Of a stretch of DNA of 53,875 nucleotides, positions 1 to 53,875 are shown one piece after another (the stretch's first letter is position 1; each line of letters starts with the position of its first letter). The position numbers and the translations under genes are program-made. Source of the DNA: a virus (Duplodnaviria > Caudoviricetes); the IMG/VR virus record IMGVR_UViG_3300006803_000001, positions 1 to 53,875 of that record. One strand, given 5' to 3'. A model generated the notes under the pieces. The model had not been told where the DNA came from and ran no database searches. It worked only from the letters and a program-made list of their open reading frames with translations.

Positions 1-123
1 CTCTTCGTAATGAAGCAACATGTTCATTTTTTCGACGTCAATCTTCTTGAACCCTTTTTTGTTCTCTTTCGCGATTTCCGCTTTTATCTCGTCCTTGGCT
101 TTTTGGAATTGGACGACTGACGC
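1..123. repeat. Terminal direct repeat, left copy (circular overlap)
   Basis: 1-123 is identical to 53753-53875, and a reading frame continues across the junction. Confidence 0.97.
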
Positions 124-3100
124 GGCGTTGAATTGCTTGTCGTCTTTGTGGTGATTGGTCGTCTTGACCATCGCCATCATTTTGCTTTGATAGTTTTTGT
201 CGGCTGGGTGCTTTTGCGGTCCGGTTGCCTCTTGCACTCGAGTTTCCGTGACTTTTTTCAGTTTGTCTTGCGGGAGCTTTTCGCGAATTGCTTTTGCACC
301 ATCGTCTGTGACTTTGAATTGCAAGAATGTTTTCTTTTTGCCGTCAGTCGTTGTCTCCTGCCAACCGATTGCTTGCATGTCTTCGACGTGCGACGATCCG
401 AGGTCAATTGAGTATCCATTGATTCGTGCGTTCTTGACTTTTTCGGCAACAATCCTCGGTTGCTTTGTTACGTCAAGAGCGGCTTGTTTGCCTTTTCTCG
501 ATGCTTGTTGGATTGCTGGTTTTTGCTCCGCAGGCAACAACGACTCGAGGTATTCGATCCTCTGCTTGAAGACCTTTGTCTCGGCGGCTGTCGCTGTGCT
601 CTTGACTATCTCGACGAGGTTGTCTTTGCGCTTTACGATTTCGCGAATCTGATCGTTGATCTCGTTTTGCGATATCCCTTCGAATATCTTTGCCGTCTTG
701 CCGTTGCCCGCTGCAATGCTGGGGTCTCTCATGCTCTCGAGCTCTCCGACAACCTTGCCCCATGCTTTTGAGTCTTTCTTCGCTCCTTGGGCTCTGTATG
801 CCAGTGACGCCCCGTTGTCGATTCGGTATGGCACGCCGTCTCTGATCAGAATGTTGTCATTTGATTGCCCCGCGACGTCTCGGTTCCCAAGGAGGCTGTC
901 TAGGACAAAATGCTCTTGCAATTGCCTGTTGACCTTGGCTTGAGCTTTTTCGCTCTCTCCCGATTCCCATTTGCCAAGCTCTTTTGAGTTGTCGACGTAT
1001 TCCGCAACCTTGTATGTGACGCCGTCTTTGACGAAGGTCTTTGACCCCGGCACCTTGGCTCCCATCTCGCGATAAATGCTGTCGGCTGTCGCCTCATTGA
1101 TCAATGCCTTGCTGTCGAGATTGTTGTCAAACGAGTCACTCTTGACAACCCATTGCTTGCCCGTGTCGGGGTCGACCATCAATTGAGGCTTTGTCGACCC
1201 GTTTAGTTGCTTTACGAACTCGAGCTTCTCGGGCTCGGGGAATACGAGGTCGAGGTTCTTGACGTCCTTGTCGAACTTGGTCGAGGTCTCGTTGTCTTTG
1301 AGCTTGTTTGAAATGACCTTCTCTTCGGCTTTCTTGTCGAGCTTTGCGGGCGTTGCTCCCGCTTCGAAATCTTCAATCTCCTTTTTCGTCGCTGCAATTT
1401 GCGCCTCGAGCGATTCAATTTTCGAAGTCGTGACTTTCGCTTGCTTCTCGAGTTTTTTCTTTTGGTTCGCGTCGTTTACTCCTTGGTAAAAAGCGGCGTT
1501 TTCCTCGGGAGACAAGTTGACGATGATTTGCAACTCTTTGTCGCTGGGGACTTTTCCCTCAGTGAGTTTTTTCTTCGCCTTGCTCAAGTATGAAGCTTCG
1601 GTCAATTGCGCTTGCTTCTCTGCCGTTAAGACTTTGAGCTTCTCGTTGACGACTGAAAAATCCCCCGACTCGAGTTGCTTCCAGTTCTCTGCTTTAATTC
1701 CCGTCAACTCTTGGAACGCTTTCTTTGTCGCGGCGTTCGGCTTCGCCATTGCGTCGTTGATCTCTTGGTATGCTTGGACGCTGTTCTCTTGCTCGAGACT
1801 CGCTTTTGCCTTTAATACGTCGTTGTCAGTGTATCCGTCTGGGTAAAGTTTCTTGTGCTTTTCGTATGCAAGCTTTTGCGTGCTTGTGCCGTCCTTGTAT
1901 TCTTTGAGCTTTGTCTCGAGGATCGTTTTGTCTTGCGAGATTTGTTCGGTGAGCTTTTTCGATGCCCCGAGGTCGTCGGCTTGTTTGTAAAATTCCGCGG
2001 TTTCTTTGCCCGACAATGACTTGATTGCCTCAAGACCTTTCGGGCTCGGGTTTTTGCCTTCTGAGATCGCTTTTTTTGCTTTGCTCAGATTTGAAGCTTT
2101 TGTGAGTTGCGCTTGTTTCTCTGTCGCGGCTCCCTTGGCTTGGTCTAGTAATGACGTATCGGAAATGCCCTTGTTTTGCTTCTTGATGTCTGTCAGCGCT
2201 TCGCCGAGCAATTTGTTTCCTTTGGTCTTCGGATTGTTGAAAACGTCCTTGATTGCTGTCTCGGCGTTGTATTGCTCGACGTCGAGCATTGTCACCTTTA
2301 CCTTGTCGGCGCCGTCTAGCTTTGCGGCTGTCCATTGATGATGACCTTCAATGATTTTGAACTTCCCGTCGGTGTCGCGTATTACAACGATATTGTTTTT
2401 CGGCAAGGTCGGGTCTTTCGCGTATGCTTCGACGTCTGATTTGAATACTTTGCTTGTCCCGAGCTTGAGCTCGTCGGTTGCAATGAACTCGGTCGACAAG
2501 TGCTCGGTCAAGAAGTAATCGTGTGCCTTTTGATACTCAAGCAACTTCGAGTTTGTTATCGGTTGAAAGTCCCCCAAGTCGTCAATGATTAGAGCGGCGG
2601 CAATTTCTCTTTCTCCGTTTGCAAGTTTTCTCGAGAGCGTTCCTTGCGGCAAGTTGTCGATCTTGTCTTGCAATGTCTCCTCTTGTGACTGAATCACTCC
2701 CTCGGTCTCGATTGCAAACTCCTGTCCGTCGCTAGTGACTGCAATGTCGAGTTGCTCGAGGGTCAATGGTCGATTGTCTTGATTGGTCAAGTCGCTGATT
2801 TCAAGCTGTCCGCTTCTGAATGCGTTTGCTCTGTTAATCCCTAAGACTTTATTTTGGAACTCATTCGGCTTTGTCTTTAACCATTCGCCATAGGTTTTGT
2901 CTTTCGGGATTTGTCCGTCCATGCTTGCGCGTGACCTTACAACGGCGCCCTTGCGCTGTTCTTTGCTCATGCCCATCTCTTTGAGCCTGTCGTCGACCGC
3001 GGCTTGAAATTCCTTGTCCCCGAGTGACTTGATTTTCTTGCCTGTCAACTCTGAGAGGCTCGGCAATACGGGGACTTGTGTTGAACGACATCCCCAATGC

Positions 3101-3864
3101 GCCGTCGGTCCGGGGAACTCCTTGTCGTGATCGACGGGTTTGTATTCTGGCAATGACCATCGCTTGCCGTCGAGCGCCATGCATGTTTTGGTCGTCCTCG
3201 AGTCCAGTGTCGCCAACCATCTGATCTCGCCGACAATGTCGTCGTTCTCTTCGATCGCCTCAAGTCGTGCCTCGTTGCTGACTGTTTGAACTGAGCTCCT
3301 CGCCAGTGTCTCGGCTTGAGCCTTCGAGACGTTCATGATTCCGTCTTTGTAGTTGTTCGCCTTCGTGCCGCGGATCCTCTTTGCCAAGTCTCCGACGTCC
3401 TCGCCTGCAAGATATCCTTGCCTCATTTGCCCCTCGAATTTGAATCGTAGAGCCTTGTCTTGCTCCTTCCACCATTTGCCGCTTGAGTGTCCCTCGATTG
3501 CACTGCGACGCATTACGGCGTTGACTTGGCTCTCTGTGGGGCTCTTGCGCAACAAGGGAACTCCGATCGCACCATTGAGCGCCGCCTTTGTCCCTTTGAT
3601 TTGCGTCCGCGCTAGTTTATCGAGGTCTTTCTCGGTGTTCTTGGTAATCGTCTTGTATGACTCGGTGATTGTCTGAGACGTGTCCTTCAAGAGCATTTGC
3701 AAGTTGCCTTTCTTGCTAGGGCTCGCGACCGCAATCTTCTTGACGAGGTCTTGTTCTAGGGTCTCGAGCTCCTTGACAACTTTCTTTCGAATGCCCGCCT
3801 CGACGCGCAAGATGTTTATCGCATTGGTATTTGACCAATCCTCGAGGTATTCGTTTGCGGACAT
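1..3864 (-). CDS. MuF (SPP1 gp7-like) minor head protein, N-terminal 1288 codons of a ~1721-aa multidomain protein that continues at 53752..52451
   Basis: ATG at 3864 (MSANEYLE) lies just after the portal stop. MuF motifs WLATLDSRTTKTC...GPTAHWGCRS (~3230-3080), ParB-like IVVIRD..GKFKIIEGHHQWTAAK (~2400-2310) and kinase-like DSLLGNRD...DNILI...RIDNG (~900-810) are all in frame with ORF 52451..53779. Confidence 0.88.
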   Translation of the reverse strand, partial: MSANEYLEDWSNTNAINILRVEAGIRKKVVKELETLEQDLVKKIAVASPSKKGNLQMLLKDTSQTITESYKTITKNTEKDLDKLARTQIKGTKAALNGAIGVPLLRKSPTESQVNAVMRRSAIEGHSSGKWWKEQDKALRFKFEGQMRQGYLAGEDVGDLAKRIRGTKANNYKDGIMNVSKAQAETLARSSVQTVSNEARLEAIEENDDIVGEIRWLATLDSRTTKTCMALDGKRWSLPEYKPVDHDKEFPGPTAHWGCRSTQVPVLPSLSELTGKKIKSLGDKEFQAAVDDRLKEMGMSKEQRKGAVVRSRASMDGQIPKDKTYGEWLKTKPNEFQNKVLGINRANAFRSGQLEISDLTNQDNRPLTLEQLDIAVTSDGQEFAIETEGVIQSQEETLQDKIDNLPQGTLSRKLANGEREIAAALIIDDLGDFQPITNSKLLEYQKAHDYFLTEHLSTEFIATDELKLGTSKVFKSDVEAYAKDPTLPKNNIVVIRDTDGKFKIIEGHHQWTAAKLDGADKVKVTMLDVEQYNAETAIKDVFNNPKTKGNKLLGEALTDIKKQNKGISDTSLLDQAKGAATEKQAQLTKASNLSKAKKAISEGKNPSPKGLEAIKSLSGKETAEFYKQADDLGASKKLTEQISQDKTILETKLKEYKDGTSTQKLAYEKHKKLYPDGYTDNDVLKAKASLEQENSVQAYQEINDAMAKPNAATKKAFQELTGIKAENWKQLESGDFSVVNEKLKVLTAEKQAQLTEASYLSKAKKKLTEGKVPSDKELQIIVNLSPEENAAFYQGVNDANQKKKLEKQAKVTTSKIESLEAQIAATKKEIEDFEAGATPAKLDKKAEEKVISNKLKDNETSTKFDKDVKNLDLVFPEPEKLEFVKQLNGSTKPQLMVDPDTGKQWVVKSDSFDNNLDSKALINEATADSIYREMGAKVPGSKTFVKDGVTYKVAEYVDNSKELGKWESGESEKAQAKVNRQLQEHFVLDSLLGNRDVAGQSNDNILIRDGVPYRIDNGASLAYRAQGAKKDSKAWGKVVGELESMRDPSIAAGNGKTAKIFEGISQNEINDQIREIVKRKDNLVEIVKSTATAAETKVFKQRIEYLESLLPAEQKPAIQQASRKGKQAALDVTKQPRIVAEKVKNARINGYSIDLGSSHVEDMQAIGWQETTTDGKKKTFLQFKVTDDGAKAIREKLPQDKLKKVTETRVQEATGPQKHPADKNYQSKMMAMVKTTNHHKDDKQFNAASVVQFQKAKDEIKAEIAKENKKGFKKIDVEKMNMLLHYEE

Positions 3865-3873: not shown

Positions 3874-5370
3874 TTAAGCTTCGACCTCGTCTTGCTCCTC
3901 TTCGGGCTCCTCTTGCTCTTCGCTCAATTGCGGCTCGGGCTCGGGCGCTGGCGTTGGCATTGGTGACTCTTGCTCGAGGTCTCTTTTCTCTTCGTCGGCT
4001 GTTGTTCCCTCTGGATACATTTCGCCTTTTTGGAGGTTGTAGAAAAAGGTCGGATATGAGATCGCCCCCATTTGCAACGCTGAAACAAGCGCCGTCAGTG
4101 TTTGGGGATTCATGCCCGCCGATACAAAGTCTTGCGATACAACGAGAAAGTTTGTTTCGGAATAGTCTTTCGGCATATTCGAGGACGTCTTGTCAGACCA
4201 CCATGCCGCAATCTGCATTGCTTGAGAAAGTGAGGCGCTCATTGCCGAGCTCATGCGACTTAGAGACGCCGTGTCGGCGCTTGCTCTCAACTGGACTGTC
4301 TCGAATGCTTCCGCGTCTCTGGACTCTGCAAAAAGCAACCTCGCCCCAAGTGCTGACATTTGTTGTTGCTTCTCTTCTAGTGCTTTTGTGAGCTCTGAAA
4401 GTCCGCTTCCCGTGAACTCCAAGAATCCGAACTTTGCATTGTCGTTTTCGCTGATCCACGCATATTCCGTCCCCAACTTGAATGTCCCGTTCTCGGCGTC
4501 AATGCCTGTCGCGTATGGTGTCGGCAATGCGGCAATGTGGCGAGCGTGCTCGAGGTCGACGCTTGAAATGTAGTGACTGACGTTGATTTGAGCCAAGTCC
4601 TCGAGGGGGATTTCCCCGACGTCGGGTTTTGTGTGCGTTGCCCCGTGAAAGACCACGGGAATGAAAGTCATGTTTTTGCCTCCGCGCATTGGCTCGAAAG
4701 TTTCTTCGGCTTCCATTGAGGATGTGATCCCCTTGCCTAAGTATGTTTCGACTCCGCTTCCCGTATATTGAGAGGTCTTGTTTCTGTCTGAATAAACGTC
4801 GACTGTCAGAATGCCGTCTCTGATTCGATATATGCGGATCCTCTCCGTATTGGCTGTCGATACGTCGTCCCCCTTCATCTCGTCGTCACGCTCTCGCACT
4901 TTGAGATAATCGAGCACGTTCTTTCCTTGTGTTCTTGTTGTGTGCCAATCGAGAATGTCGACTTCGCGATAAAACGCGAAATATGGTCTTTGTTCCTCTT
5001 CCGACCATTCGATGATTGTGCATGCCCTGCCAGTGCTTGAGACCGCCTCCGCCAACTCGACGCAATAGTTGGTGATCGAGTTGCCCTGCATGTCTACGTC
5101 GGCAAGGACTTGTTCGTCGAGCTCGCTCTCTGTCTCGGGCGGCTTGCGAGTCAACAATCCAGTTTGAGCCCTGTTTGCTGTTGATGTGCCGTTGAAGAAA
5201 TTGCCGCGTTGTTTGAACTTCTGATATTCCTTCTCGGTCTGCCCGTCGAGCCTCGGGAGATATGTCTCTCCTAGCTTCTTTATTGTGCGACCGCCTGCGA
5301 TGCAATCAATGACTGTTTTCCACCCTTCGACGTTTTCTTCGTATTGGGTATGGACTGATTCGATGCTCAT
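3874..5370 (-). CDS. Portal protein (DUF4055 / SPP1-like)
   Basis: YLPRL..Q.EKEY..F..RG.F.N.T N-terminus, PLEDLAQIN.SHY, acidic C-terminus; sits directly upstream of MuF. Likely start MSIESV. Confidence 0.9.
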   Translation of the reverse strand: MSIESVHTQYEENVEGWKTVIDCIAGGRTIKKLGETYLPRLDGQTEKEYQKFKQRGNFFNGTSTANRAQTGLLTRKPPETESELDEQVLADVDMQGNSITNYCVELAEAVSSTGRACTIIEWSEEEQRPYFAFYREVDILDWHTTRTQGKNVLDYLKVRERDDEMKGDDVSTANTERIRIYRIRDGILTVDVYSDRNKTSQYTGSGVETYLGKGITSSMEAEETFEPMRGGKNMTFIPVVFHGATHTKPDVGEIPLEDLAQINVSHYISSVDLEHARHIAALPTPYATGIDAENGTFKLGTEYAWISENDNAKFGFLEFTGSGLSELTKALEEKQQQMSALGARLLFAESRDAEAFETVQLRASADTASLSRMSSAMSASLSQAMQIAAWWSDKTSSNMPKDYSETNFLVVSQDFVSAGMNPQTLTALVSALQMGAISYPTFFYNLQKGEMYPEGTTADEEKRDLEQESPMPTPAPEPEPQLSEEQEEPEEEQDEVEA

Positions 5371-5432
5371 GATACTTGCCTTTCTACTGAGAAAACAATC
5401 TTTCGTCAAAAATAAATACTTAGATTTGCAAT

Positions 5433-11505: not shown

Positions 11506-12924
11506 TTACAAGCCCCCGATTCTGAGCTTTCCGCTTCGGCGCTTTTTCCACTGCAACGCATATGTCAAGGCGTCATACGCGTGGTCTTCGTGTGTTGTGT
11601 CCACGTCCTCGGGATTTGTTCCGCTCCTGCCAAGTGCGGGAATTGTTCGGATCGCGTGAACGCAATTCTCGAAGAATACCAGACCCGCCCCTCCCTCTGG
11701 GTCAAGTGAGTTGGGCGATAATAAGAGGTGCAACAATTGTGCGCGGTGAACTCGAGACCCTGCCCATTTTTCGACGGGTTTGATTTTGAGCCCTAGCGCC
11801 TGCAATTGCTTCCCTCTCGGGATTGCCTCCTTGCCCGATGCGTCGGCGCTGCCGATGTTGGCGAATGCTCCCGAGTCCATGTTGCCCGTGATCGGCTCGA
11901 CGTGCCTCACTGGTTCGCCTTCATGGTCACAACGACCGAGCCTCTCGTTGATTGCAAGTGCCCGCTCTGCATACTCTCTCGGCAACATGCCTTCCTTGTA
12001 GAGCTCGGCAATGACGTAGTATGTTTTTGTCGTTGGGTTCTGAGTGACCCAATACATTGCGGCGGGGGCGGCGTATCCGTCGTCGGCTCCGACCCAGACA
12101 TCCCAATCAATCGGAATGTCGAACTCTCTGCAAACGTGTCGGCTTCGGTTCCAGACTCCCCCATACATTGCCCCAGCGATGACTTCCCAATCTCCGAGCC
12201 TCAATGCACGAATCAAGTCCCTGTCGCCTAGACCCTCGAGGCGCTGTTCGTAGTCTGGGTCGTTGCTCGTCATGGCGAAGTTGTCCTCGAGCTTGGCAGG
12301 CACAAAAACTCGAGTCATTCCGCCGTCCTCTTTTGCTGCCGTCTTGACTATGTATTCTCCTTGATCGACGAACCCAGCCTTTGCCCAATGATGCCCGACG
12401 CCGCCCGGGTTTGTGCCCAGTATGCTGCGCGGGAACTTGGTTGTCACATGCTTGGGCACGTCGAGCGTTCCGATGCGCATACGGGCTCGTAAATAGCGAT
12501 ACTCGGCTTCTGTGAAGTGTGTCGCCTCGTCTAAGAGCAAAACGTGTATTTCTGCGCCTTGGTATTTCGTCAATGCGTTCGGGTTGGACAGGTGACAAAG
12601 GTTGATGCGGCTCCCGTTGGCGAATCTGACTTGCTTGCCGACGATCTTTGCATGCCCGTCTTCAACGATTGGCGCAAGCATATCTCGGAAACTTCCCGAG
12701 CCTTGCAAGTGGTTGTATTCGAGCTCCGGCCATGTGCGGCGGAAGAGGTAGACTTGCAAATTTGGAACTTGCAAACACCAAAGAATGCCCGCGGCTCTCA
12801 ATAGCCAACTCTTGCCCCCGCCCGCGGCGCCTCCGTATAGTGTCTCGGCGGCGGGGCTGTTGATTGCGGCTTCTTGCTTCGGCTGAATTGTCAGCGTTAT
12901 GCCCTGCGCGTTTTCGGTCATCAA
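11506..12924 (-). CDS. terL: Terminase large subunit
   Basis: Walker A YGGAAGGGKS, Walker B LLLDEATHF, TNPGG.GH.W, nuclease motif DHAYDALTY. Confidence 0.96.
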   Translation of the reverse strand: MMTENAQGITLTIQPKQEAAINSPAAETLYGGAAGGGKSWLLRAAGILWCLQVPNLQVYLFRRTWPELEYNHLQGSGSFRDMLAPIVEDGHAKIVGKQVRFANGSRINLCHLSNPNALTKYQGAEIHVLLLDEATHFTEAEYRYLRARMRIGTLDVPKHVTTKFPRSILGTNPGGVGHHWAKAGFVDQGEYIVKTAAKEDGGMTRVFVPAKLEDNFAMTSNDPDYEQRLEGLGDRDLIRALRLGDWEVIAGAMYGGVWNRSRHVCREFDIPIDWDVWVGADDGYAAPAAMYWVTQNPTTKTYYVIAELYKEGMLPREYAERALAINERLGRCDHEGEPVRHVEPITGNMDSGAFANIGSADASGKEAIPRGKQLQALGLKIKPVEKWAGSRVHRAQLLHLLLSPNSLDPEGGAGLVFFENCVHAIRTIPALGRSGTNPEDVDTTHEDHAYDALTYALQWKKRRSGKLRIGGL

Positions 12925-13502
12925 TCTGACTCGTCGGTTTGGTCAATGAACTCGGGAACCTCTGACTCGTTTTTGTGTATGATGGTGATCGGCGGCATTG
13001 TGGTGACTAGCGGTTTCCCGTCGGCTCCTGTCATTTCCATTTTGTTACGATCTCCCCACCTGTCAGAATAGCGCCTTTTGAGTATCTCCATTTTTGCACG
13101 CCAATCGGTGTCGCTTGCCACTTGCTCGACAAGCATGACCTCGTTGTCCGCTTCGGCGTGTTCGATCGCGTCGAGAAATTGGGTGTATATTGACTCGATG
13201 TCCTCGTCCCTCTCTTTTTGTCCGCGTTCTTTCCATCCGAAAAATGATCGGTATGAGACTCGAGCTCTGCCGCATGCTGCATTAACATATGAGCCCCCGC
13301 GTATTGATGCGCAAATGCTCTCAATCACCTCGATCGTCAATTCGGTTTTTCTTCCCGCTTTCCCCATGTGCTTGAGGTTGCCGCGCATTCGATACCAATT
13401 CAAGGTCAAAACGTCTGTCTCGTTCCTTCCGTGTTCGTCCTCGTTCCATTTAGGGACGGAAACCTCGCGCCCGCGTGGAGTGCGCAACTTTTGTCGAATC
13501 AC
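12921..13502 (-). CDS. terS: Terminase small subunit
   Basis: Immediately upstream of terL; GRKTELT...I..G....AC HTH-like region, WRA..EIL.RRY...WG, and EMTGADGKPL tail. Alternative start at 13367. Confidence 0.8.
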   Translation of the reverse strand: MIRQKLRTPRGREVSVPKWNEDEHGRNETDVLTLNWYRMRGNLKHMGKAGRKTELTIEVIESICASIRGGSYVNAACGRARVSYRSFFGWKERGQKERDEDIESIYTQFLDAIEHAEADNEVMLVEQVASDTDWRAKMEILKRRYSDRWGDRNKMEMTGADGKPLVTTMPPITIIHKNESEVPEFIDQTDESD

Positions 13503-14320
13503 TTTTCACGAATGATGCAAGGGACTGTGCGTTTCCAGTCAATCGAATGATGCAATCTTTTGTGGTTTGCGTTCATCATAGAGACTTGCACACTCGAGGG
13601 TTGCATTGTGACTGTGGTGAAGGATTTGACATATGTTCCATTTGCGTATGCCCCCGTCATCCCGCCCTTTTGTCTTTGTGTCTCTTTCTGGTTGATTGCA
13701 ATCACTGGAATTGTGAGGAATAGGTTTCCTCGGCTTCCCTCGAGTGTGTATGCGTTGACGTCTTCATTGATCCCGACGAATGTGAATTGTCGTTTCGGAG
13801 ACAGTATGAAACTATTCATGCATTTTCGTTTGTTGAATCTGTATTGTTTTTCGTTGTTCCATCCCCCGATGAAGTCTCCGTTCTGTGCCATTGCTACCGC
13901 TTTGCAATTTGTCGACTCATAGAATGCAATCATCATTTCGAATACCTTGTTCAAGTCTTTGATCAATGGCGTTCCTGTTGTGTCTGCGTATTTGTATGCA
14001 ATTTCGTAGTAATCGTCGTCAAGTTGTATGAAGTGATCGAGCCCCAGTTCTCGGGCAATGTCGAAACAAGCGTTTCTCGCGTGCACAATGACGTTGCGGT
14101 TGTCGAAGTTGTTCCCCTCGTCGCTGGCGTCTGCAATCGCTTTCTTGTCGAAGCAAATGACCTTGTCTCCGAATCTCTCTCGGTATTCGTCTGCGGTCTC
14201 GTCTTCGTCGTCAATGATGATGTAAACGTCCCCAGTGTATCCGCATTTTTCAAGGGTCTTGTATGTCAAGACGTTGTCGGCTCTGCCGTGTGAGAGAATG
14301 AATACGGCGTGCTTACTCAT
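13499..14320 (-). CDS. GT-A fold glycosyltransferase, TET-associated/GREB1-like family (putative DNA modification)
   Basis: FILSHGRA, YIIIDDED, ARNACFDIA, FIQLDDD (DxD), NEDVN, Q...GGMT motifs. Confidence 0.72.
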   Translation of the reverse strand: MSKHAVFILSHGRADNVLTYKTLEKCGYTGDVYIIIDDEDETADEYRERFGDKVICFDKKAIADASDEGNNFDNRNVIVHARNACFDIARELGLDHFIQLDDDYYEIAYKYADTTGTPLIKDLNKVFEMMIAFYESTNCKAVAMAQNGDFIGGWNNEKQYRFNKRKCMNSFILSPKRQFTFVGINEDVNAYTLEGSRGNLFLTIPVIAINQKETQRQKGGMTGAYANGTYVKSFTTVTMQPSSVQVSMMNANHKRLHHSIDWKRTVPCIIREK

Positions 14321-14723
14321 ACTCCTCGAGGTATTGCTTTCTTAGCTCTTCGCATATCTTGAGAAATCCGTTTTCGATTGCTGACTCAAAGTCGACAATC
14401 ACAAGGGCGCTCTCTTCCATTAGGGTTTTGACCTCTTGATTTGCGTGCGAATAAAAGTCGGCGATTTTCTCGTAATTAAAAACGGCGTGACGATGTGCGG
14501 CAATGATCAAGAAGTCTTTGACCTCTGGGGGTGCTGTTGAGTCTGCAATTGCTCTCTTGAGCTTCGCAAGCTTGCTTCGGTCTACAAGTTCGAAAACGTC
14601 GGGCGGCTTGTTCTTGGGCTCGTATATTGGCGCCTCGATCTTGAGCTCGTATTTGCCCTCAGTTTCTTCGGGTATGATCTCCTCGGCTCCAAAGAGCGTT
14701 TTCTGTCTATGCATTTTCCTCAA
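14313..14723 (-). CDS. Conserved partner of the phage glycosyltransferase
   Basis: KIEAPIYEP...FL..AA.RH.VFNY.KIAD.Y.HA...LMEESALVI.DF..AIE.G; overlaps the glycosyltransferase start. Confidence 0.65.
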   Translation of the reverse strand: MRKMHRQKTLFGAEEIIPEETEGKYELKIEAPIYEPKNKPPDVFELVDRSKLAKLKRAIADSTAPPEVKDFLIIAAHRHAVFNYEKIADFYSHANQEVKTLMEESALVIVDFESAIENGFLKICEELRKQYLEEYE

Positions 14724-18166: not shown

Positions 18167-19003
18167 TCAATCGACTTTTGTCACGCTGACTTCCCAGCCT
18201 TTGACAATTGTCGTGAAGTGATCTTTTGACGGCGTGTCGATTGCAATGTGAATCAAGTCAATGATTGTGCTGTCGGTTGTGATTTCGCTCGTCATGTATT
18301 TGAGAGCCTTGTTCACTTGCCAACCTTTCGTCACCATGTTTGCAATTTGCGTTTGTTGGGTCTTTGATAGTCCTGCGAAAACTTGCAATTCGGAGTCTTT
18401 TTTGAGGATGATTCCGTCTTTGATTGCCTCAATGAACTCGGACTCATGATTCGGACTGATTGCATTTGCAAGCAATTGACGTTGAGAGTCGTCTCTCGCT
18501 GTCTGGACTGATTGCTTTTTTGCGACTTCGTTGCTTGCTGTCTTGAGTCCGACCTTGCCTTTCTTGACCTCCTCGAATGCTTCGGGGTCTTCTTGCTTGA
18601 GTTTCTTTGCCCTCTCGACTGAGCGAATGCTTGCCCCTGTGGCGTCCGCTGCAATTTTGGCGGTCTTGCCAATCTTTGCCTTTTCTATTTTATCAAGCAA
18701 CTCGGCTCCAATTGCCGCGCGTTGTGTCGAGGTCAAGTGCCTGCGCTTGATATTTGCATCTAGGACAAAGACCTCGGGAATTGCTCCGTCTTTCTTTACG
18801 TCGTAGGCTCGATATGCAAAAGGCAATCCGAGCTCTTGGCAAGCTCTGTATCTGTGGCGTCCGTCGAGGACTTGCCCGTCGTAGACGATGCCCGCGTCGC
18901 GTTGCCCGTTTTCTTTGATTGACTGCTTGAGCTCTTCGTATTCGAGGTCGCTCATTTCTGGAAGAGCGGTTGCCAGTTCATGGCATTTCATTTTCGTTTT
19001 CAT
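18167..19003 (-). CDS. ParB-like N-terminal domain + HTH protein
   Basis: LP.MS..EY.EL..SI..NGQ...VLDGRHRYRAC..LG; N.KRRHLT..QRA; AADATGASIRSVERAK HTH. Confidence 0.85.
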   Translation of the reverse strand: MKTKMKCHELATALPEMSDLEYEELKQSIKENGQRDAGIVYDGQVLDGRHRYRACQELGLPFAYRAYDVKKDGAIPEVFVLDANIKRRHLTSTQRAAIGAELLDKIEKAKIGKTAKIAADATGASIRSVERAKKLKQEDPEAFEEVKKGKVGLKTASNEVAKKQSVQTARDDSQRQLLANAISPNHESEFIEAIKDGIILKKDSELQVFAGLSKTQQTQIANMVTKGWQVNKALKYMTSEITTDSTIIDLIHIAIDTPSKDHFTTIVKGWEVSVTKVD

Positions 19004-29234: not shown

Positions 29235-31019
29235 TTAGTCTTCTAGGGTTCGGAACATTTTGATCGAGTAATTGAACGTCAATGTATACTCGCCCGTTTT
29301 CTTTTGTGGCTCATGGAACCACATAGAAAATACATGTTGTTTGTTCATGCCCCCCGAGAATCCATCCCATCCAACAAGAATTTGTTTAATGTTGTCGTAG
29401 TTAATTTCGCTGACGGAAAATGTTTTCGTGTAATAACTGGTAAAAGACCCCGGGACATATGTTTGCGATAAGTCCCTTGCTGTATCTGTTACATTATACG
29501 GGACGGGATTTGATCCGTTTGGAAAGCTTGGGTTTTGATAAAATCCGTTGTATATTCTTGTATCGTATCCTTGCACGTAAACCATAATCTGATTGCAATA
29601 TGACCCGCTTGTTTGGTGATCCATTTGCCCCGTGTATCTGCTGAATCCGCCCGCGTTGATGTCGGTTCCGAATATGTCGTTTGAGTAATATGTCGGTAAA
29701 AAGTGCATGCCGAATATGCCCTTATTGACAATCTCGCACAAATTGCTGTTCGTGATGACCCCTCCGTCTCCCGCTTCTGCAATACCACTCGGGATTGATA
29801 CTGTAATCGTATTGTTTGGCGCGTCAATTGCCGTGACTTCATACTCTCCGTTCCACCATGTTATCGGGTCAGCTTCTCGAATGGTTCCGCCGCTTCCCGA
29901 TCCCGCATTCAGTGCCGAGGTGATTGTGAGTGTTGTTGTTGTCGGAGTCGACGCAACTACCCATCCACCATTGTATGAGCTCGGTATCACTCCAAGGATT
30001 TCGACGTCGTCTCCTGTTGTCAATTGATGGTCGACGCTTGTCGTCAACGTGAACTCGGTCGCGGTGCTTGTAATTGATGCAATAGGTCTTTTGACCCTTT
30101 GGGCTCCCGAGATTATTACATTGCCCCCGACTTGGTAGTGATGCGAATCCCCAGCGCTTGGGGCGACTGTGATCTCTGCGGTTCCATCTCCGTTGTCGAC
30201 GATTCCTGCCGTATTGTATTCGACCGGCCAACCTGTGATGTCAAACGGGACATTGTCCGTCGGCGTGAAATCATATGTCGATGTCATTTGATATTTGAAA
30301 CCGAGTTGCTGACCCGGACCGAGAATGACGGGGTCGTCGAGAACAATTCGAGAGAATATCGGTTTGTTATAAAAGAGCCCGACGCCGAGCTCTGTGATTG
30401 TGTTGTTCTCTGTTTGCGCTGCGGTGAACAAGTATGATTGATGAAGAGTGACTCGCGGATAGTCTGTATCTGTCACGTCGACGACGTTATATTGAAAATA
30501 CTCTCCAATTGGGGGAGCCATTCGAGTTGAAGTGTATGCGACCAGTGAATCCAGCGCATCTCGTTTTGTGTTGTATACAGTGAGAGACGCGGGCGTTGTG
30601 ACTGTTTGCGATCTGTCAACTGTGACGACTGTGCCGCTGTTGACTGTGACAATTCTTGCCTCTTCGCCCGAGCCAAACTTGATCATATTGTCGACGTCGT
30701 TCCCGATGAAGTTTGCTGTCCCGCTCGATCTTGTGACTTGGTTTCCTGTTTGCGTATAAAGCGAGTTTGCTTTTGCCTCACTGTTGGGCGAGTTGCCCGT
30801 CCCGCAAAACCCGTATCGCATGAGTTGATCGAATGCGGAGCTTGCATTTGAGCTCACATAATCGTCAATCGCGGGGTTGAGTATTAGGTTTTTTTTCAAT
30901 CCAGATTCGTATGCAATTGTTCCGTCTTCATTCAATACATAGACTTGATACTTCCCGCCTCCGATTGTGGCGCTTCTCGACTGGTTTGCCTTTTCGGTCA
31001 CTTTGATTTCATTTTTCAT
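29235..31019 (-). CDS. Virion structural/adhesin protein C2 (paralog of 33270..34994)
   Basis: Shared KNLIL..GTGNSPN, TITELG, SR..LDDPV.LG.GQQL, TATEFT.TTS, WWNG and PQKK..YTL blocks. Confidence 0.75.
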   Translation of the reverse strand: MKNEIKVTEKANQSRSATIGGGKYQVYVLNEDGTIAYESGLKKNLILNPAIDDYVSSNASSAFDQLMRYGFCGTGNSPNSEAKANSLYTQTGNQVTRSSGTANFIGNDVDNMIKFGSGEEARIVTVNSGTVVTVDRSQTVTTPASLTVYNTKRDALDSLVAYTSTRMAPPIGEYFQYNVVDVTDTDYPRVTLHQSYLFTAAQTENNTITELGVGLFYNKPIFSRIVLDDPVILGPGQQLGFKYQMTSTYDFTPTDNVPFDITGWPVEYNTAGIVDNGDGTAEITVAPSAGDSHHYQVGGNVIISGAQRVKRPIASITSTATEFTLTTSVDHQLTTGDDVEILGVIPSSYNGGWVVASTPTTTTLTITSALNAGSGSGGTIREADPITWWNGEYEVTAIDAPNNTITVSIPSGIAEAGDGGVITNSNLCEIVNKGIFGMHFLPTYYSNDIFGTDINAGGFSRYTGQMDHQTSGSYCNQIMVYVQGYDTRIYNGFYQNPSFPNGSNPVPYNVTDTARDLSQTYVPGSFTSYYTKTFSVSEINYDNIKQILVGWDGFSGGMNKQHVFSMWFHEPQKKTGEYTLTFNYSIKMFRTLED

Positions 31020-32695: not shown

Positions 32696-33267
32696 ATTTC
32701 ATTGAATGTGAGGCTCTCTGACGACGCCCTCGTTTGTGTGATTGTCCTCGCCCCATTTGTGAGAGACAGGGTTCCGACTGCCGTTGGAAAGACCCAAGCG
32801 CCAAGCGGGAAAAGGGGCGCCGTCAAATCCTCTTCAAGCACAAGTCGCCTTCTCAAGTTTTGTATGTCCGTGACTGTTCGCCATGCCCCCCCCACTTGGT
32901 AATCATAGAGGTATATCCTTGAACCGATTGCAATTTCTGTCGGGACTCCGAAATCACAATTGATCTCGCCCTCGATTGTTTGCGGTATTCTTAGCGCGAC
33001 GCCGTGTCCCCAAAGAGGCATTTTGATAGGCTTGTATGCTTGTGCAACTCTGTTGAATGAAAGCTTTTCGTTGTCAGAATCGCTTGTCGTGTCTCGTTGG
33101 AACCTGTAGGAATTTCGAACTCTCGACCTGTGACGGACTGACTGATCCCATCCGCTCAATGAGGATATGATCGCCGTCTTGTATTCGTATATACACTCGA
33201 TTCCCGCCGCCCAATTTGGCAACAAGACAAGCTCTTCGGGTTGGTCGTATGTATTAGGATATGCCAT
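32692..33267 (-). CDS. Distal tail (Dit-like) protein A2 (paralog of 36643..37221)
   Basis: YPNTYD..EEL.LLPNWA.G...YKT..I..LSG..Q.VR; start MAYPN. Confidence 0.75.
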   Translation of the reverse strand: MAYPNTYDQPEELVLLPNWAAGIECIYEYKTAIISSLSGWDQSVRHRSRVRNSYRFQRDTTSDSDNEKLSFNRVAQAYKPIKMPLWGHGVALRIPQTIEGEINCDFGVPTEIAIGSRIYLYDYQVGGAWRTVTDIQNLRRRLVLEEDLTAPLFPLGAWVFPTAVGTLSLTNGARTITQTRASSESLTFNEI

Positions 33268-33269
33268 TT

Positions 33270-50580: not shown

Positions 50581-50594
50581 GCGCCCGCGGGCGC
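50581..50594. repeat. Palindrome GCGCCCGCGGGCGC, copy 8 (at the scaffold stop)
   Basis: Exact match. Confidence 0.95.
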
Positions 50595-51379: not shown

Positions 51380-51469
51380 GCCTCTTTGGTATCCGTTCGC
51401 GCCCCATCGCGCAACCAAAAAACCCCGTATCGGAACGCGCCCGATACGAGGTTGGTGTCTTTTGTTCTG

Positions 51470-51742
51470 TTACGCCTCGGCGGGTATGCTGATGGCGATC
51501 GTCACAACGCTTGCAATCCAGTTGACGCAATCGACGTCTTCGGTTCTGAAGTATGCATATGTGCAATCGTTCACAAGGACTCGGAATGCGTCTCCGTCTG
51601 GGTGTCCCTCGAGTTTGCCTTGCACCATGAGCCCTGTCGGGAACCCGTCGCCCGGCAATACTCCGTTCTCGTTTGCTGTCACTCTCACTTGCTTGCCGAT
51701 ATACTGGGCAAGCTCTTGTCTTGTTTCGTTTTTGTTTTTCAT
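51470..51742 (-). CDS. Hypothetical protein
   Basis: 90-aa ORF with an A/C-rich leader; extended -10 TGtTATAAT at ~51783-51791. Confidence 0.6.
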   Translation of the reverse strand: MKNKNETRQELAQYIGKQVRVTANENGVLPGDGFPTGLMVQGKLEGHPDGDAFRVLVNDCTYAYFRTEDVDCVNWIASVVTIAISIPAEA

Positions 51743-51851: not shown

Positions 51852-51903
51852 CTTGCCCTGTATAGGATAAAAAAAAGCAAAAAAAAGCTTTTTGGGTTTT
51901 TAG

Positions 51904-52093: not shown

Positions 52094-52441
52094 TTAATTG
52101 TAAATCGTAAGCTGTGTATTCCACCAATCGGTGATCGTCCCGTCTTCAATCTCTCTCCTGCCCCTGTCGATTCTGTCTTGAAACTCTTGCGGGTCGATCT
52201 GTCCGTCCCAATTATATATCGAACCGAAGATTGCAATCGGCTCCCCTTCGGGGGTCTCAAGTTGCCCTTGTTGGTCGTCAATACTTTTAAATTTGCATCT
52301 GTTAATTTGACGCATTCCGTTTTCGCCTCCAATGAATATGACGTGATTGCCCCGCTCTGTGATGTAGACTTTGATTACTGGGTATATTTCCTCGTCGAAA
52401 TACATTGTCGAATAGGTGTTGTTTAGGTTTTCGAATTTCAT
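52094..52441 (-). CDS. Acidic protein downstream of MuF, candidate immunity protein
   Basis: Starts 9 nt after the MuF stop; position only. Confidence 0.55.
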   Translation of the reverse strand: MKFENLNNTYSTMYFDEEIYPVIKVYITERGNHVIFIGGENGMRQINRCKFKSIDDQQGQLETPEGEPIAIFGSIYNWDGQIDPQEFQDRIDRGRREIEDGTITDWWNTQLTIYN

Positions 52442-52450: not shown

Positions 52451-53752
52451 TTATTCTATGATTGGGAGTTTCTGTCCTTTTATGAATACGACTTCCTCTG
52501 CTCGTCTTCCGTCGGGTAGAATCTGAAGTCCGTTTTTCTTGAGGACGGCAATTGTGTCGTCTCTCTGTTTTTCTGATGTTGCTAGGAAAAAGTCTATTTC
52601 GTCGGGAATGAATATTGTGCCTTTGAAATCGGTTTCGTCGGACATTCCGTATTTGGTCGCTTCCTTTGCCAATTCGTCGATTTGTTCGATTGTTGAAAGT
52701 CGCAATTTATTCTTTGAGATTGCTCCCCATACGTCCCCCCTGTGTATGACCGCGTCGGCTCTTGCTAGGTTTCCCGCTTTGAAATACATTCCACCTTCGA
52801 GATTGTCGAACTCTTCTTTCTTTCGTAGTCTTGTGAATGACGAGTCGGCGCCTCCTGTGTGTATGTCTGTGATGGGGCTCGCGCCTTGCTCTTCTCCCCC
52901 GGGTCTCTCCACGACGACCCCTTTTCTGAGTCGTTGTCCTGTTGAAGTGAAATCCCCTCCAGATTGCAACATATTGTCGAGGGTGATTGACATCTCTTTG
53001 TATGTCCTATGATGAAGGGCAATATTTCTTGTTCTTGGGTCGGTCTCAATTTGCCTTCTTGTGATGTCGGCTCGATATGATGCCTTTCGACCCTCGTCAA
53101 AGCTGTTTGCAATGCCTTCGGCTGTGTATCCTTCTGTGCCTCTCTTCGGAACCTTGGTCTCGTATTGTTTCTCGATGAAGGTTCGCGCTTTTTTGATACG
53201 CTTCTCGATGTCGGGTTCTGCAATCGCTTTTTTCCATCCTGCTTTGTTGGTGTCGTTGTGGACATTGACAGTTTTTGACAACCAAACCATTTCTTTGTAG
53301 TTTGCGTCGGCGGGTTTTGTGTCAACGCCGAGCCTATCGAGTGCCCCGACTGCTTGCGTGATCTTGTCCGCGTTGACCTCCCCTTCGATTTCAATTGTGA
53401 CGCGCCCCTCGAGTGCTAGTCCCCTGCGCCTTTCCACCCCTTCGAGCCTGTCAATGAATTCGACTGATGTGCCGTCTTCTAGTCTGAGCTTGTAGACGTC
53501 CGCCGCTGTGTTTTCGATTCTGACCGCGAGTTGCCCGTCGTTTTTTGCTTGCCCGTTTTTAAATGTCGAGCTCCGAGCCTCAAAAGTATTTGATATTGTC
53601 CCGCTGAATCCTTCCGCGGCAACGTCGGGTTTCTTTTTTACTTTTGGCGGTTCGAAAAGATATGACTCATTCGGGATTGCGACTGTCAAATTCGAGGGAA
53701 TGTCATTATTCTTTTGAACGTGATCGTAAAGCTTTTGTAGCTTGTCCGCTTG
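52451..53752 (-). CDS. C-terminal 433 aa of the MuF multidomain protein (possible ADP-ribosyltransferase-like domain)
   Basis: In frame with 3864..1 across the junction; LHHRT....L..GG.F.S...R...S...D...GGADSSFTR...E motif. Confidence 0.75.
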   Translation of the reverse strand, partial: QADKLQKLYDHVQKNNDIPSNLTVAIPNESYLFEPPKVKKKPDVAAEGFSGTISNTFEARSSTFKNGQAKNDGQLAVRIENTAADVYKLRLEDGTSVEFIDRLEGVERRRGLALEGRVTIEIEGEVNADKITQAVGALDRLGVDTKPADANYKEMVWLSKTVNVHNDTNKAGWKKAIAEPDIEKRIKKARTFIEKQYETKVPKRGTEGYTAEGIANSFDEGRKASYRADITRRQIETDPRTRNIALHHRTYKEMSITLDNMLQSGGDFTSTGQRLRKGVVVERPGGEEQGASPITDIHTGGADSSFTRLRKKEEFDNLEGGMYFKAGNLARADAVIHRGDVWGAISKNKLRLSTIEQIDELAKEATKYGMSDETDFKGTIFIPDEIDFFLATSEKQRDDTIAVLKKNGLQILPDGRRAEEVVFIKGQKLPIIE

Positions 53753-53875
53753 CTCTTCGTAATGAAGCAACATGTTCATTTTTTCGACGTCAATCTTCTT
53801 GAACCCTTTTTTGTTCTCTTTCGCGATTTCCGCTTTTATCTCGTCCTTGGCTTTTTGGAATTGGACGACTGACGC
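53753..53875. repeat. Terminal direct repeat, right copy
   Basis: Identical to 1-123. Confidence 0.97.

What the first reader, a model, noticed from the sequence alone, without database searches (positions are those of the whole stretch)
1..3864. Giant ~1721-aa MuF head protein carrying several enzyme-like domains, hidden by the circular junction
Seen: one frame runs from ATG 3864 to base 1 and on through 53752..52451. It contains an N-terminal MuF domain, a ParB/Srx-like segment (IVVIRDTDGKFKIIEGHHQW), a duplicated helical linker, a kinase-like domain and a separate C-terminal domain. Established: MuF proteins are packaged minor head proteins, and some carry a C-terminal polymorphic toxin. 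Inference: this one stacks at least two effector domains and may be injected at infection to modify host proteins or lipids, or to counter defences.
Basis: partly seen in the sequence, partly recalled or inferred. Interest (0 to 1): 0.82.

Follow-up and report, generated by a model that had tools for sequence, protein, structure and literature searches.

The report
Giant multi-enzyme phage head protein
A 1721-residue phage head protein joins a portal-binding MuF domain to a HipA-like kinase and a domain shaped like the DNA ADP-ribosylating toxin DarT, and it belongs to a large, unnamed family of phage proteins that are probably injected into the host with the DNA.

Summary
The window is a complete virus record with an exact 123-bp end repeat. 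The minus-strand frame from ATG 3864 runs through base 1 into 53752..52451 and gives 1721 aa. An identical 1721-aa protein is on record as one uninterrupted gene on six other contigs.

- MuF/SPP1-gp7 domain (Pfam, NCBIfam).
- ParB/Srx-like segment (hhalign 95.8% to ParB_N), but the motif arginine is glutamine here.
- A duplicated helical unit.
- A kinase domain (hhalign 96.4% to HipA_C; the AlphaFold model matches PI4K, CtkA and HipT).
- A separate C-terminal domain, whose model matches four DarT structures best of 48,161 chains (Z 8.2-8.7, a borderline level).

The polymorphic-toxin reading is not supported. Kinase, middle and C-terminal domains form one conserved ~840-aa block. It is found in 441 protein clusters and in 59 reading frames among 73 prophage loci from many phyla, always at the C-terminus and almost always behind MuF. 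The 115-aa downstream ORF has no relatives.

This is a polyvalent MuF head protein, a known kind, carrying an unannotated kinase plus ART-like cassette. Packaging, injection and both enzyme activities are inferred, not shown.

The parts
1..3864 (-). First 1288 codons of the 1721-aa gene (ATG at 3864-3862). It starts 10 nt after the portal gene's stop codon.
52451..53752 (-). Last 433 codons plus the stop (52451-52453) of the same gene, continuing from base 1 across the circular junction.
53753..53875 (.). Second copy of bases 1-123 (exact terminal repeat of the record). It is assembly overlap, not extra coding sequence.
2695..3864 (-). MuF / SPP1 gp7-type minor head domain, aa 1-390.
   Evidence: Pfam Phage_Mu_F, aa 144-263, E 5.8e-12, 46.8 bits against a cut-off of 29.6. 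TIGR01641, 44.3 bits against 39.65. phrog_241, 2.5e-87.
2215..2424 (-). ParB/Srx-like segment, aa 481-550, with a degenerate motif E506-G-H-H-Q510.
   Evidence: hhalign to ParB_N 95.8%, E 7.3e-9, with controls at or below 0.2%. phrog_26387, 6.5e-5. SerK and SbnI weak hits. Homologous segments in 5 other giants read DG[NH]HR.
1777..2247 (-). Helical repeat unit, copy 1 (aa 540-696).
1288..1755 (-). Helical repeat unit, copy 2 (aa 704-859).
550..1242 (-). HipA-like / PI3-4K-like kinase domain (KIN), aa 875-1105. Conserved K908, E924, D989, N994, D996, D1003, N1004, D1016 and R1102 are all present.
1..462 (-). Middle region (MID), first part, aa 1135-1288: beta strands carrying the conserved G1150, E1161 and D1162, then helices.
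53417..53752 (-). Middle region (MID), second part, aa 1289-1400: the end of a helical hairpin, a low-confidence linker and a beta-sandwich.
52454..53416 (-). C-terminal domain (CTD), aa 1401-1721. The core, aa 1517-1718, has a DarT-like (ADP-ribosyltransferase superfamily) fold in the model. There are 18 invariant residues, including H1536, R1596, R1619, D1621, E1661 and K1665.
52094..52441 (-). 115-aa ORF starting 10 nt after the giant gene's stop. No relatives were found, so it is listed as a neighbour and is not shown to belong.
3874..5409 (-). Portal gene directly upstream. The portal is the expected docking partner of the MuF domain.
   Evidence: phrog_145, 6.6e-103

Best explanation
The gene encodes a 192-kDa polyvalent MuF minor head protein of a siphovirus. 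The N-terminal MuF (SPP1 gp7-type) domain is expected to bind the portal and carry a few copies of the whole chain into the procapsid. The chain would then leave with the DNA at infection. It carries a degenerate ParB/Srx-like segment and two copies of a family-wide helical unit. It ends in a conserved ~840-aa cassette made of a HipA-like serine/threonine-type kinase with an intact catalytic set, a beta/helical middle region, and a C-terminal domain with a DarT-like ADP-ribosyltransferase fold. The most likely job is early host takeover or counter-defence by phosphorylating and ADP-ribosylating host targets (protein, or DNA by analogy with DarT). What is shown: the ORF, the domain homologies and folds, the conservation, and the position in the head-gene module. 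What is inferred: packaging, ejection, both enzyme activities and the targets.
For: ORF and join.

Head-module position: small and large terminase subunits, portal, this gene, scaffold, major head protein. The same order, terminase-portal-giant-...-major head, is seen in prophage loci.

MuF: over the curated cut-offs.

Family: 441 cluster representatives at E<=1e-3. Of the 121 listed representatives of 1000 aa or more, KIN is in 119, MID in 121, CTD in 121, MuF in 101, and all four in 99. The CTD ends a median of 1 residue from the C-terminus. Fifty-nine reading frames among 73 genome loci from many phyla carry KIN-MID-CTD in that order.

Kinase: HipA_C or HipA_2 weak Pfam hits in 7 and 2 of 42 members, and PI3_PI4_kinase in 1. 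hhalign to a 30-sequence HipA_C alignment gives 96.4%, E 1.1e-9, and 80.8% with a 107-sequence query, running from the beta3 lysine to the catalytic loop. Six unrelated control pairs score at or below 1%. The AlphaFold model has pLDDT above 90 over the domain. Foldseek gives 423 kinase matches at E<=1e-3, including PI4KIIIbeta 1.5e-5, CtkA with TMt 0.52 and HipT with TMt 0.46. K908, D996 and D1016 are invariant, and N994 is conserved in at least 90% of a 19-sequence alignment.

CTD: the model has pLDDT 86.9 and pTM 0.79. A search of 48,161 chains that does not depend on Foldseek puts four DarT structures from different clusters at ranks 1-4: Z 8.7, 8.4, 8.4 and 8.2, with 156-161 residues aligned at rmsd 3.7-3.9. 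All later rows match only a helical hairpin. Foldseek lists Thermus DarT at probability 0.92 and TMt 0.51. The CTD has 18 invariant polar or glycine residues in 32 sequences.

Separability: the kinase domain occurs alone in other giant phage proteins. One is Yersinia phage fHe-Yen8-01 gp129, annotated as particle-associated, where an ADPrib_exo_Tox ART follows it. The start of MID plus the CTD occurs without the kinase in the Pseudanabaena phage Pan1 MuF protein.

Literature: SPP1 gp7 binds the portal, enters the procapsid in a few copies and supports the start of infection (PMC6316719, passages). MuF fusions and polyvalent proteins with ParB, kinase and ART domains have been proposed as injected effectors (PMC5512222, passages; PMC9503650, passages).
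Against: No data show that the protein is in virions or enters cells.

The DarT match is borderline by the tool's own note: models without a clear relative typically reach a best Z of 7-8. Foldseek found no PDB match at E<=1e-3. Profile comparisons of the CTD with DarT (0.45-0.62%), PARP (0.13%) and DUF3626 (0.1-0.2%) are not significant. In the same setup PARP against DarT reached only 55.6%, so these comparisons have little power for ART families.

The window's CTD has Ser where 87% of relatives have Tyr (position 1592).

No Pfam, NCBIfam or PHROG model reaches significance on the window's own kinase or CTD sequence. No PDB sequence or profile search found a relative.

The ParB-like motif lacks its arginine.

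Strict conservation of the cassette would also fit a role inside the capsid rather than in the host.
Confidence: 0.6

Rival explanations
1. It is a MuF polymorphic toxin of the kind described by Jamet et al. 2017. In that picture a variable C-terminal toxin is delivered to kill or arrest competitors, and the small downstream ORF 52094..52441 is the immunity protein that protects the producer.
For: It has an N-terminal MuF domain and a long C-terminal extension. A small ORF starts 10 nt after the stop codon. HipA and DarT, the nearest known relatives of two of its domains, are toxins of toxin-antitoxin systems. The MuF-toxin concept is published in PMC5576092 (passages).
Against: The C-terminal 840 aa are conserved, not polymorphic. 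The 115-aa ORF has no relative among the ORFs downstream of 57 family members. About 35 of those 57 instead share an unrelated ORF of 144-170 aa. It has no relative in Pan1, in phage records, or in PHROGs and NCBIfam. No integrase or repressor turned up in 62 ORFs scanned against PHROGs, whereas MuF toxins were reported in temperate phages.
Confidence: 0.12
2. The conserved cassette works inside the particle or during assembly and ejection, for example as an internal head or ejection protein, or by modifying phage proteins or phage DNA. On this reading it is not an effector aimed at host targets.
For: The cassette is tightly and almost always coupled to MuF and holds a fixed C-terminal position across phyla. 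The helical repeat units are long. In the prophage relatives a large DNA methyltransferase sits in the same head module, which hints at DNA modification linked to packaging.
Against: The kinase domain also occurs in other giant phage proteins in which no MuF domain was detected (Pfam E<=0.01 on gp129), and the CTD occurs without the kinase. That pattern fits modular effectors. Siphoviruses already have a tape measure protein for channel formation, and this genome has one. ATP and NAD+ are not expected inside a packed capsid; this last point is an inference.
Confidence: 0.15
3. The C-terminal domain is not an ADP-ribosyltransferase. The DarT resemblance would be a shared alpha/beta arrangement only, and the domain would carry out some other chemistry or only bind a ligand.
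For: Z of 8.2-8.7 lies at the level the tool calls common for models without relatives. There is no significant Foldseek, HMM or hhalign support. Ser replaces the consensus Tyr at 1592. The best viral structure matches are unnamed giant-virus proteins.
Against: All four top rows of 48,161 chains are DarT, from four different sequence clusters, each covering about 160 of about 200 residues. The one local hhalign alignment places the invariant E1661 strand on the C-terminal DarT strand 'AE.L.'. That this strand carries DarT's catalytic glutamate is my recollection, not a tool result. Language-model leads, weak as they are, repeatedly named ART families.
Confidence: 0.35

Closest known systems
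Polyvalent proteins of phages and conjugative elements (Iyer, Burroughs, Anand, de Souza, Aravind 2017; PMC5512222)
   Same: One polypeptide joins a virion-targeting MuF domain with several effector-type domains. ParB/Srx-like, kinase and ART domains are all on their list. They describe a distinct kinase clade in prophages of Verrucomicrobia and Bacteroidetes, and Verrucomicrobiota loci hold the window's nearest kinase relatives here (41% identity).
   Different: Here three domains form one fixed C-terminal cassette rather than a free mix. None of the Pfam models present in the library scanned matches the cassette; that Pfam holds models derived from that study (ART-PolyVal, PBECR, LPD) is partly my recollection. 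Their paper places the kinase nearer to classical protein kinases, while the profiles here place it with HipA_C. Their domain tables are on an FTP site that I could not see, so the cassette may already be listed there.
MuF polymorphic toxins (Jamet et al. 2017; PMC5576092)
   Same: MuF N-terminus with a long C-terminal extension, encoded next to the portal gene.
   Different: The C-terminus is conserved rather than variable. No recognisable immunity gene is present. No sign of lysogeny genes was found.
HipA / CtkA / HipT kinases (Pfam HipA_C, PF07804)
   Same: The profile match runs from the ATP-binding lysine strand to the catalytic loop, and the folds match.
   Different: There is no HipA N-terminal domain and no HipB-type partner. 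The window's subfamily reads N-R-D-V-A-G...N-D-N and I-D-N-G rather than D-G-H-x-K-N; the D-G-H form is found in the Desulfobacterota-type relatives. The Pfam model does not reach significance on the window protein itself.
DarT, the DNA ADP-ribosyltransferase toxin of DarTG (PDB 7omu, 7omv, 7yk3, 8baq)
   Same: Best structural match of the CTD core, aa 1517-1718.
   Different: Sequence identity is 9-11%. There is no significant profile match. The domain is about 100 residues larger, with added helical and beta-sandwich parts, it is fused to a head protein, and no DarG-like macrodomain was found in the PHROG scans of the window's ORFs.
Yersinia phage fHe-Yen8-01 gp129 and Pseudanabaena phage Pan1 gp15
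   Same: gp129 (2146 aa, annotated as particle-associated) has the same kinase domain (local HMM, 6.7e-59) followed by an ART. Pan1 gp15 (927 aa) has MuF, the start of MID and the CTD.
   Different: In gp129 Pfam detects no MuF, and its ART is of the ADPrib_exo_Tox type. Pan1 gp15 lacks the kinase.
T4 Alt
   Same: An ART packaged in the head and injected with the DNA. This is the precedent quoted in PMC5512222 (passage).
   Different: It is not a MuF fusion and was not compared here.

Membership tests
MuF / SPP1 gp7 minor head protein (PF04233, TIGR01641) | Family model matched above its curated cut-off | tested here: met
   46.8 bits against 29.6; 44.3 bits against 39.65
MuF / SPP1 gp7 minor head protein (PF04233, TIGR01641) | Gene lies in the head module next to the portal gene | tested here: met
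   The portal gene ends 10 nt upstream; scaffold and major head genes lie downstream
MuF / SPP1 gp7 minor head protein (PF04233, TIGR01641) | Binds the portal and is present in virions | not testable with these tools
   Needs virion proteomics or a pull-down
Polyvalent proteins (Iyer et al. 2017) | Two or more effector-type domains in one chain of a phage or conjugative element, with a delivery-linked domain | tested here: met
   MuF, ParB-like, kinase and ART-like fold domains
MuF polymorphic toxins (Jamet et al. 2017) | C-terminal domain varies between otherwise related proteins | tested here: not met
   The C-terminal 840 aa are conserved in 119-121 of 121 long relatives
MuF polymorphic toxins (Jamet et al. 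2017) | Cognate immunity gene directly downstream | tested here: inconclusive
   A 115-aa ORF is present, but it has no relatives and no family hit
HipA-like kinases (PF07804) | Pfam model matched above its cut-off on the window protein | tested here: not met
   No hit at E<=1. Seven of 42 relatives give weak hits, the best at E 0.001
HipA-like kinases (PF07804) | Profile-profile homology to the catalytic core | tested here: met
   96.4%, E 1.1e-9, 96 columns; controls at or below 1%
HipA-like kinases (PF07804) | Protein-kinase-like fold with the lysine, the catalytic aspartate and the metal-binding aspartate | tested here: met
   423 kinase matches by Foldseek. K908, D996 and D1016 are invariant. 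The equivalence of D1016 to the HipA metal-binding aspartate is inferred, because the alignment does not reach it.
ParB/Srx superfamily (PF02195) | Homology to the ParB N-terminal domain | tested here: met
   hhalign 95.8%, E 7.3e-9; controls at or below 0.2%. The Pfam model itself gives no hit.
ParB/Srx superfamily (PF02195) | Conserved arginine of the G-x-x-R motif | tested here: not met
   The window has Q510. Five of 5 homologous segments in other giants have R.
ADP-ribosyltransferase superfamily, DarT-like (PF14487) | ART fold | tested here: inconclusive
   DarT takes ranks 1-4 of 48,161 chains at Z 8.2-8.7, but this is at the tool's borderline and Foldseek gives E 0.1
ADP-ribosyltransferase superfamily, DarT-like (PF14487) | Sequence or profile match to the DarT family | tested here: inconclusive
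   hhalign 0.45-0.62%. The method gave only 55.6% for PARP against DarT.
ADP-ribosyltransferase superfamily, DarT-like (PF14487) | NAD+ binding and a catalytic glutamate | not testable with these tools
   Invariant E1661 is the candidate. This needs biochemistry.

The most novel reading that the evidence does not exclude
The kinase-MID-CTD block is a widespread, so far unnamed cassette carried into host cells from phage capsids. In it a HipA-type kinase works together with a DarT-type transferase that ADP-ribosylates host DNA or RNA. On this reading phages use against the cell the same chemistry that bacteria use against phages in DarTG. The recurrence of 'kinase followed by an ART', with a different ART clade in Yersinia phage gp129, would then mark a functional pair rather than a chance fusion.
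Probability: 0.2. Interest if true: 0.75.

Novelty: new variant of a known kind. Interest (0 to 1): 0.55.

Why it matters
Phage head proteins that travel with the DNA act before any phage gene is expressed, so they are strong candidates for the first moves against host defences. This family is large: 441 clusters at 50% identity, with prophage copies in Desulfobacterota, Verrucomicrobiota, Hydrogenedentota, Nitrospirota, Gammaproteobacteria and other phyla. Its conserved 840-aa cassette has no name in Pfam, PHROGs or NCBIfam. Placing the two catalytic-looking domains with HipA-type kinases and, tentatively, DarT-type transferases gives concrete mutants and assays to try. It also gives annotators three domain models that would label thousands of 'head morphogenesis' giants.

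Tried and rejected
- DNA search of the gene against phage records found nothing.
- Close-relative scans of viral contigs with both halves of the cassette found nothing. A genome-contig scan with the major head protein also found nothing.
- Word-based protein searches gave little. P0002 returned only two frameshifted fragments of one close relative. The kinase slice and the ParB slice returned nothing.
- PDB sequence and profile searches with P0001, P0002, A1, A3, A4 and A5 found no meaningful match. CtkA appeared at E 1.1 on the catalytic loop only.
- hhalign of the kinase alignment against a single E. coli HipA sequence aligned only the catalytic loop, at 10%. The 30-sequence HipA alignment was needed.
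- Kinase against classical protein kinases (24 sequences) gave 0.15% and 4.2%, not significant, although the register was correct. HipA against the same set gave 0.27%, so this setup cannot see that distance.
- CTD against bacterial PARP gave 0.13%. CTD against DUF3626 gave 0.1-0.2%. CTD against DarT gave 0.45-0.62%.
- The CTD model matched Hsp70 substrate-binding domains by Foldseek at E about 0.01, but with TM 0.1-0.2 and rmsd about 15. I rejected this as a partial beta-sandwich resemblance.
- The viral structure library had no match at E<=1e-3. Unnamed giant-virus proteins reached TMt 0.5-0.64.
- Protein Atlas leads scored 0.81-0.91 and are leads only.
- I tested whether the window's ParB-like gene 18167..19003 is related to the segment. 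BLASTP gave E 0.24 over the motif only.
- I looked for relatives of the window's 115-aa ORF among the ORFs downstream of the giant gene in 57 relatives and found none. Many of those relatives share a different ORF of 144-170 aa.
- No tRNA genes were found.
- I did not run complex prediction, because no binding claim is made.

Full report
**Observation.** The window is a whole IMG/VR virus record, classed as having direct terminal repeats and as 100% complete. Bases 1-123 equal 53753-53875 exactly, so the unit genome is 53752 bp with 48.9% G+C. On the minus strand, ORF 1..3864 runs off the left end and ORF 52451..53875 runs in from the right end. On the rotated sequence they form one ORF of 1721 aa with a single, terminal stop. 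The protein is 191.7 kDa with pI 8.6.

The join is not an assembly illusion. A protein identical in all 1721 residues (P0154) is on record as a single gene on six contigs from several sources, the longest 53909 bp. A second 1721-aa relative differs at 48 positions. Contigs from four other sequencing runs cover the right end, and they continue past base 53875 in three of the four runs, one by 10818 nt. The junction (aa 1288/1289) also lies inside a block that more than 100 homologues carry uninterrupted.

**Context.** Nearly all genes are on the minus strand. PHROG scans give small and large terminase subunits (12921-13502, 11506-12924), portal (3874-5409), this gene, scaffold (50594-51418), major head protein (49367-50377), head-tail connectors, tail tube-type protein, tape measure and tail fibres. 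The gene's ATG lies 10 nt after the portal stop. It therefore sits exactly where siphoviruses keep their MuF/gp7 minor head gene. No integrase or repressor was recognised.

**N-terminal half.**
- *MuF.* Pfam Phage_Mu_F (aa 144-263, 46.8 bits against a cut-off of 29.6) and TIGR01641 (44.3 against 39.65) are met. phrog_241 'head morphogenesis' covers aa 1-684 at 2.5e-87.
A local iterative search found homologous segments in five other giants that read DG[NH]HR. An alignment of the six segments matches a 30-sequence ParB_N alignment at 95.8%, E 7.3e-9, with four unrelated controls at or below 0.2%. The window's E506-G-H-H-Q510 aligns with ParB's G-E-R-R, so the second arginine is a glutamine here. 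The fold call stands, but activity is doubtful.
- *Helical duplication.* The duplicated 'linker' is real (34% identity, E 3e-21). It is a unit found in one to three copies in many relatives.

**The family.** An exhaustive phmmer search with the last 474 residues found 441 cluster representatives at E<=1e-3, of which 337 are at or below 1e-10. The 150 best were listed, almost all 1000-3570 aa long, with the match at the extreme C-terminus.

Mapping the whole protein on the 149 representatives kept for analysis showed that aa ~875-1712 behave as one block. With local HMMs for three parts (KIN 875-1105, MID 1135-1400, CTD 1401-1715), the 121 representatives of at least 1000 aa gave these counts: KIN 119, MID 121, CTD 121, MuF 101, all four 99. 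The CTD ends a median of 1 residue before the C-terminus. The one clear exception is a 3570-aa protein. These HMMs were built from the same set, so the counts describe architecture, not independent detection.

Pfam on 29 of the giants found MuF in 27. Between MuF and the block it found variable inserts: NUDIX in 6, ADPrib_exo_Tox in 2, and ART-PolyVal, GNAT, HNH, an intein and a weak peptidase hit in 1 each. Nothing hit the block itself.

A degenerate DNA pattern for the family's most conserved motif found 73 loci in bacterial genome assemblies. They come from Desulfobacterota (most), Verrucomicrobiota, Hydrogenedentota, Nitrospirota, Gammaproteobacteria, Acidobacteriota, Planctomycetota, Chloroflexota and others. 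Fifty-nine reading frames there carry KIN-MID-CTD in that order. In two of the three loci examined the neighbours are terminase, portal, the giant gene, two small ORFs, a large DNA methyltransferase and the major head protein; in the third a neck protein and a head maturation protease follow the giant gene.

**Kinase domain.** The window's own sequence gives no Pfam hit at E<=1. Among 42 relatives, however, 7 touch HipA_C (best 0.001), 2 touch HipA_2 and 1 touches PI3_PI4_kinase. Three touch TIGR03843 and one touches Bud32.

A 19-sequence alignment of the domain matches a HipA_C alignment built from 30 gammaproteobacterial loci at 96.4%, E 1.1e-9, over 96 columns. The match runs from the W-V-V-K strand (K908) through the helix-C glutamate to the N-R-D catalytic loop. 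A 107-sequence query gives 80.8%. Six unrelated profile pairs score at or below 1%. Classical protein kinases are not significantly matched.

The AlphaFold model of aa 860-1288 has mean pLDDT 84.9, and above 90 across the domain. It finds 423 kinase structures at E<=1e-3. These are led by PI4KIIIbeta (1.5e-5), PAK1 and the HipA-family kinase CtkA (TMt 0.52), with HipT at TMt 0.46.

K908, D989, D996, D1016 and R1102 are invariant, and N994 is nearly so, in the 19-sequence alignment. All are present in the window. Two sequence subtypes exist. The window's type reads N-x-D-V-x-G and is found in 98 of the 124 representatives that have the domain. A D-G-H type looks more like HipA.

**C-terminal domain.** No sequence method names it. 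It has 18 invariant residues in 32 sequences, among them R1515, H1536, S1580, D1584, T1595, R1596, R1619, D1621, D1628, E1661, K1665 and R1704.

The AlphaFold model of aa 1248-1721 is confident, with mean pLDDT 86.9 and pTM 0.79. Foldseek finds no PDB match at E<=1e-3. Its top rows (Hsp70 substrate-binding domains) have TM 0.1-0.2, and I reject them. Rank 31 is Thermus DarT with NAD+, at probability 0.92 and TMt 0.51.

An aligner that does not use Foldseek compared the model with 48,161 representative chains. It put four DarT structures at ranks 1-4: Thermosipho, M. tuberculosis, Thermus and E. coli DarT1. Their Z-scores are 8.7, 8.4, 8.4 and 8.2, with 156-161 residues aligned at rmsd 3.7-3.9, covering model residues ~270-471 (aa 1517-1718). 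Every later row matches only the helical hairpin at the start of the model. By the tool's own note, Z around 8 is where unrelated arrangements begin, so I rate the ART fold as likely, not proven.

Profile tests do not help. CTD against DarT gives 0.45-0.62%, against PARP 0.13% and against DUF3626 0.1-0.2%. PARP against DarT reaches only 55.6% in the same setup. The one local CTD-DarT alignment does put the invariant N-E-T-I-F-K strand (E1661) on the C-terminal 'AE.L.' strand of DarT. That this is DarT's catalytic glutamate is my recollection, not a tool result. The window differs from 87% of its relatives in having Ser at position 1592 in place of Tyr.

**Modularity.** The kinase domain alone occurs in other giant phage proteins: 20 phage records at 28-36% identity. 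One is Yersinia phage fHe-Yen8-01 gp129, which its depositors annotate as particle-associated. It has the kinase at aa 1578-1785 (6.7e-59) and an ADPrib_exo_Tox domain at aa 2035-2117. The Pseudanabaena phage Pan1 MuF protein has MuF, the first strands of MID and the CTD, but no kinase. So the kinase and MID-CTD are separable units that are usually kept together. A kinase followed by an ART of another clade recurs in at least one unrelated virion protein.

**Mechanism.** SPP1 gp7 binds the portal, enters the procapsid in a few copies and raises infectivity (PMC6316719, passages). MuF fusions and polyvalent proteins are proposed to be ejected with the DNA (PMC5512222, passages; PMC9503650, passages; PMC5576092, passages).

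On that basis the most likely course is: docking on the portal through MuF, packaging of the 192-kDa chain, exit with the genome, and then phosphorylation and ADP-ribosylation of host targets. Only the sequence-level steps are shown here.

The toxin-immunity reading is weak for three reasons. The cassette is conserved. The 115-aa ORF is an orphan. A related strain in an estuary run lacks 391 bp just beyond that ORF while keeping it, which says nothing either way.

**Novelty.** The kind is known (polyvalent MuF proteins). The fixed kinase-MID-CTD cassette and the DarT-like fold of its last domain are not named in any library searched. No paper joining these features turned up in four of the full-text searches: MuF with polymorphic toxin, MuF with kinase and polyvalent protein, HipA with MuF, and polyvalent protein with kinase, virion and injected. 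A fifth search, HipA-like with phage, virion, injected and kinase, returned no papers at all. The supplementary domain tables of Iyer et al. 2017 could not be seen and may already list parts of the cassette.

Noticed in passing
window 13499-14320 (-): An ORF next to the small terminase subunit matches phrog_842, 'beta-glucosyl-HMC-alpha-glucosyltransferase', at 2.5e-60. This may be a sign of modified phage DNA.
   Followed up: no
window 29235-36646 (-): Four tail genes look like a tandem duplication of a two-gene cassette. 31016-32695 and 34991-36646 both hit phrog_1082, and their 20-nt leaders share the last 12 bases. 29235-31019 and 33270-34994 both hit phrog_9998.
   Followed up: no
window, all gene starts: Only 7 of 36 gene starts have a Shine-Dalgarno-like motif, and many leaders are A-rich. 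This pattern is typical of Bacteroidota hosts; that link is my own knowledge and was not tested. The DNA is held by freshwater runs and, at 0.75 of the sampled words, by one estuary metagenome run.
   Followed up: partly
window 51510-51900: A 5346-nt contig of a related strain in an estuary run skips these 391 bases, which lie between the scaffold gene and the 115-aa ORF. The stretch therefore seems dispensable.
   Followed up: no
window 18167-19003 (-) and 14313-14723 (-): There are two further ParB-like genes in the same genome: phrog_4715 at 3.9e-16 and phrog_620 at 1.1e-6. The first keeps the D-G-R-H-R motif.
   Followed up: partly
L034:7772-8634, L042:9378-10195 and about 35 of 57 loci: In the prophage relatives, a conserved ORF of 144-170 aa and then one of about 116 aa follow the giant gene directly. 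Neither has a PHROG hit. In the two loci checked (L034, L042) a 799-1284-aa DNA methyltransferase (phrog_27806) comes next, ahead of the major head gene.
   Followed up: partly
P0012 aa 260-530: One relative carries an intein inside its MuF domain: Pfam Intein_splicing at 1.4e-7, below the family's cut-off. Intein models also hit one or two members of alignment A1 in the NCBIfam and Pfam scans.
   Followed up: no
model of aa 1517-1718: Unnamed proteins of giant viruses share the CTD core fold at TMt 0.5-0.64, though with E above 1e-3. They come from Tupanvirus, a mimivirus, Klosneuvirus and invertebrate iridescent virus 6 (its protein 422L).
   Followed up: no
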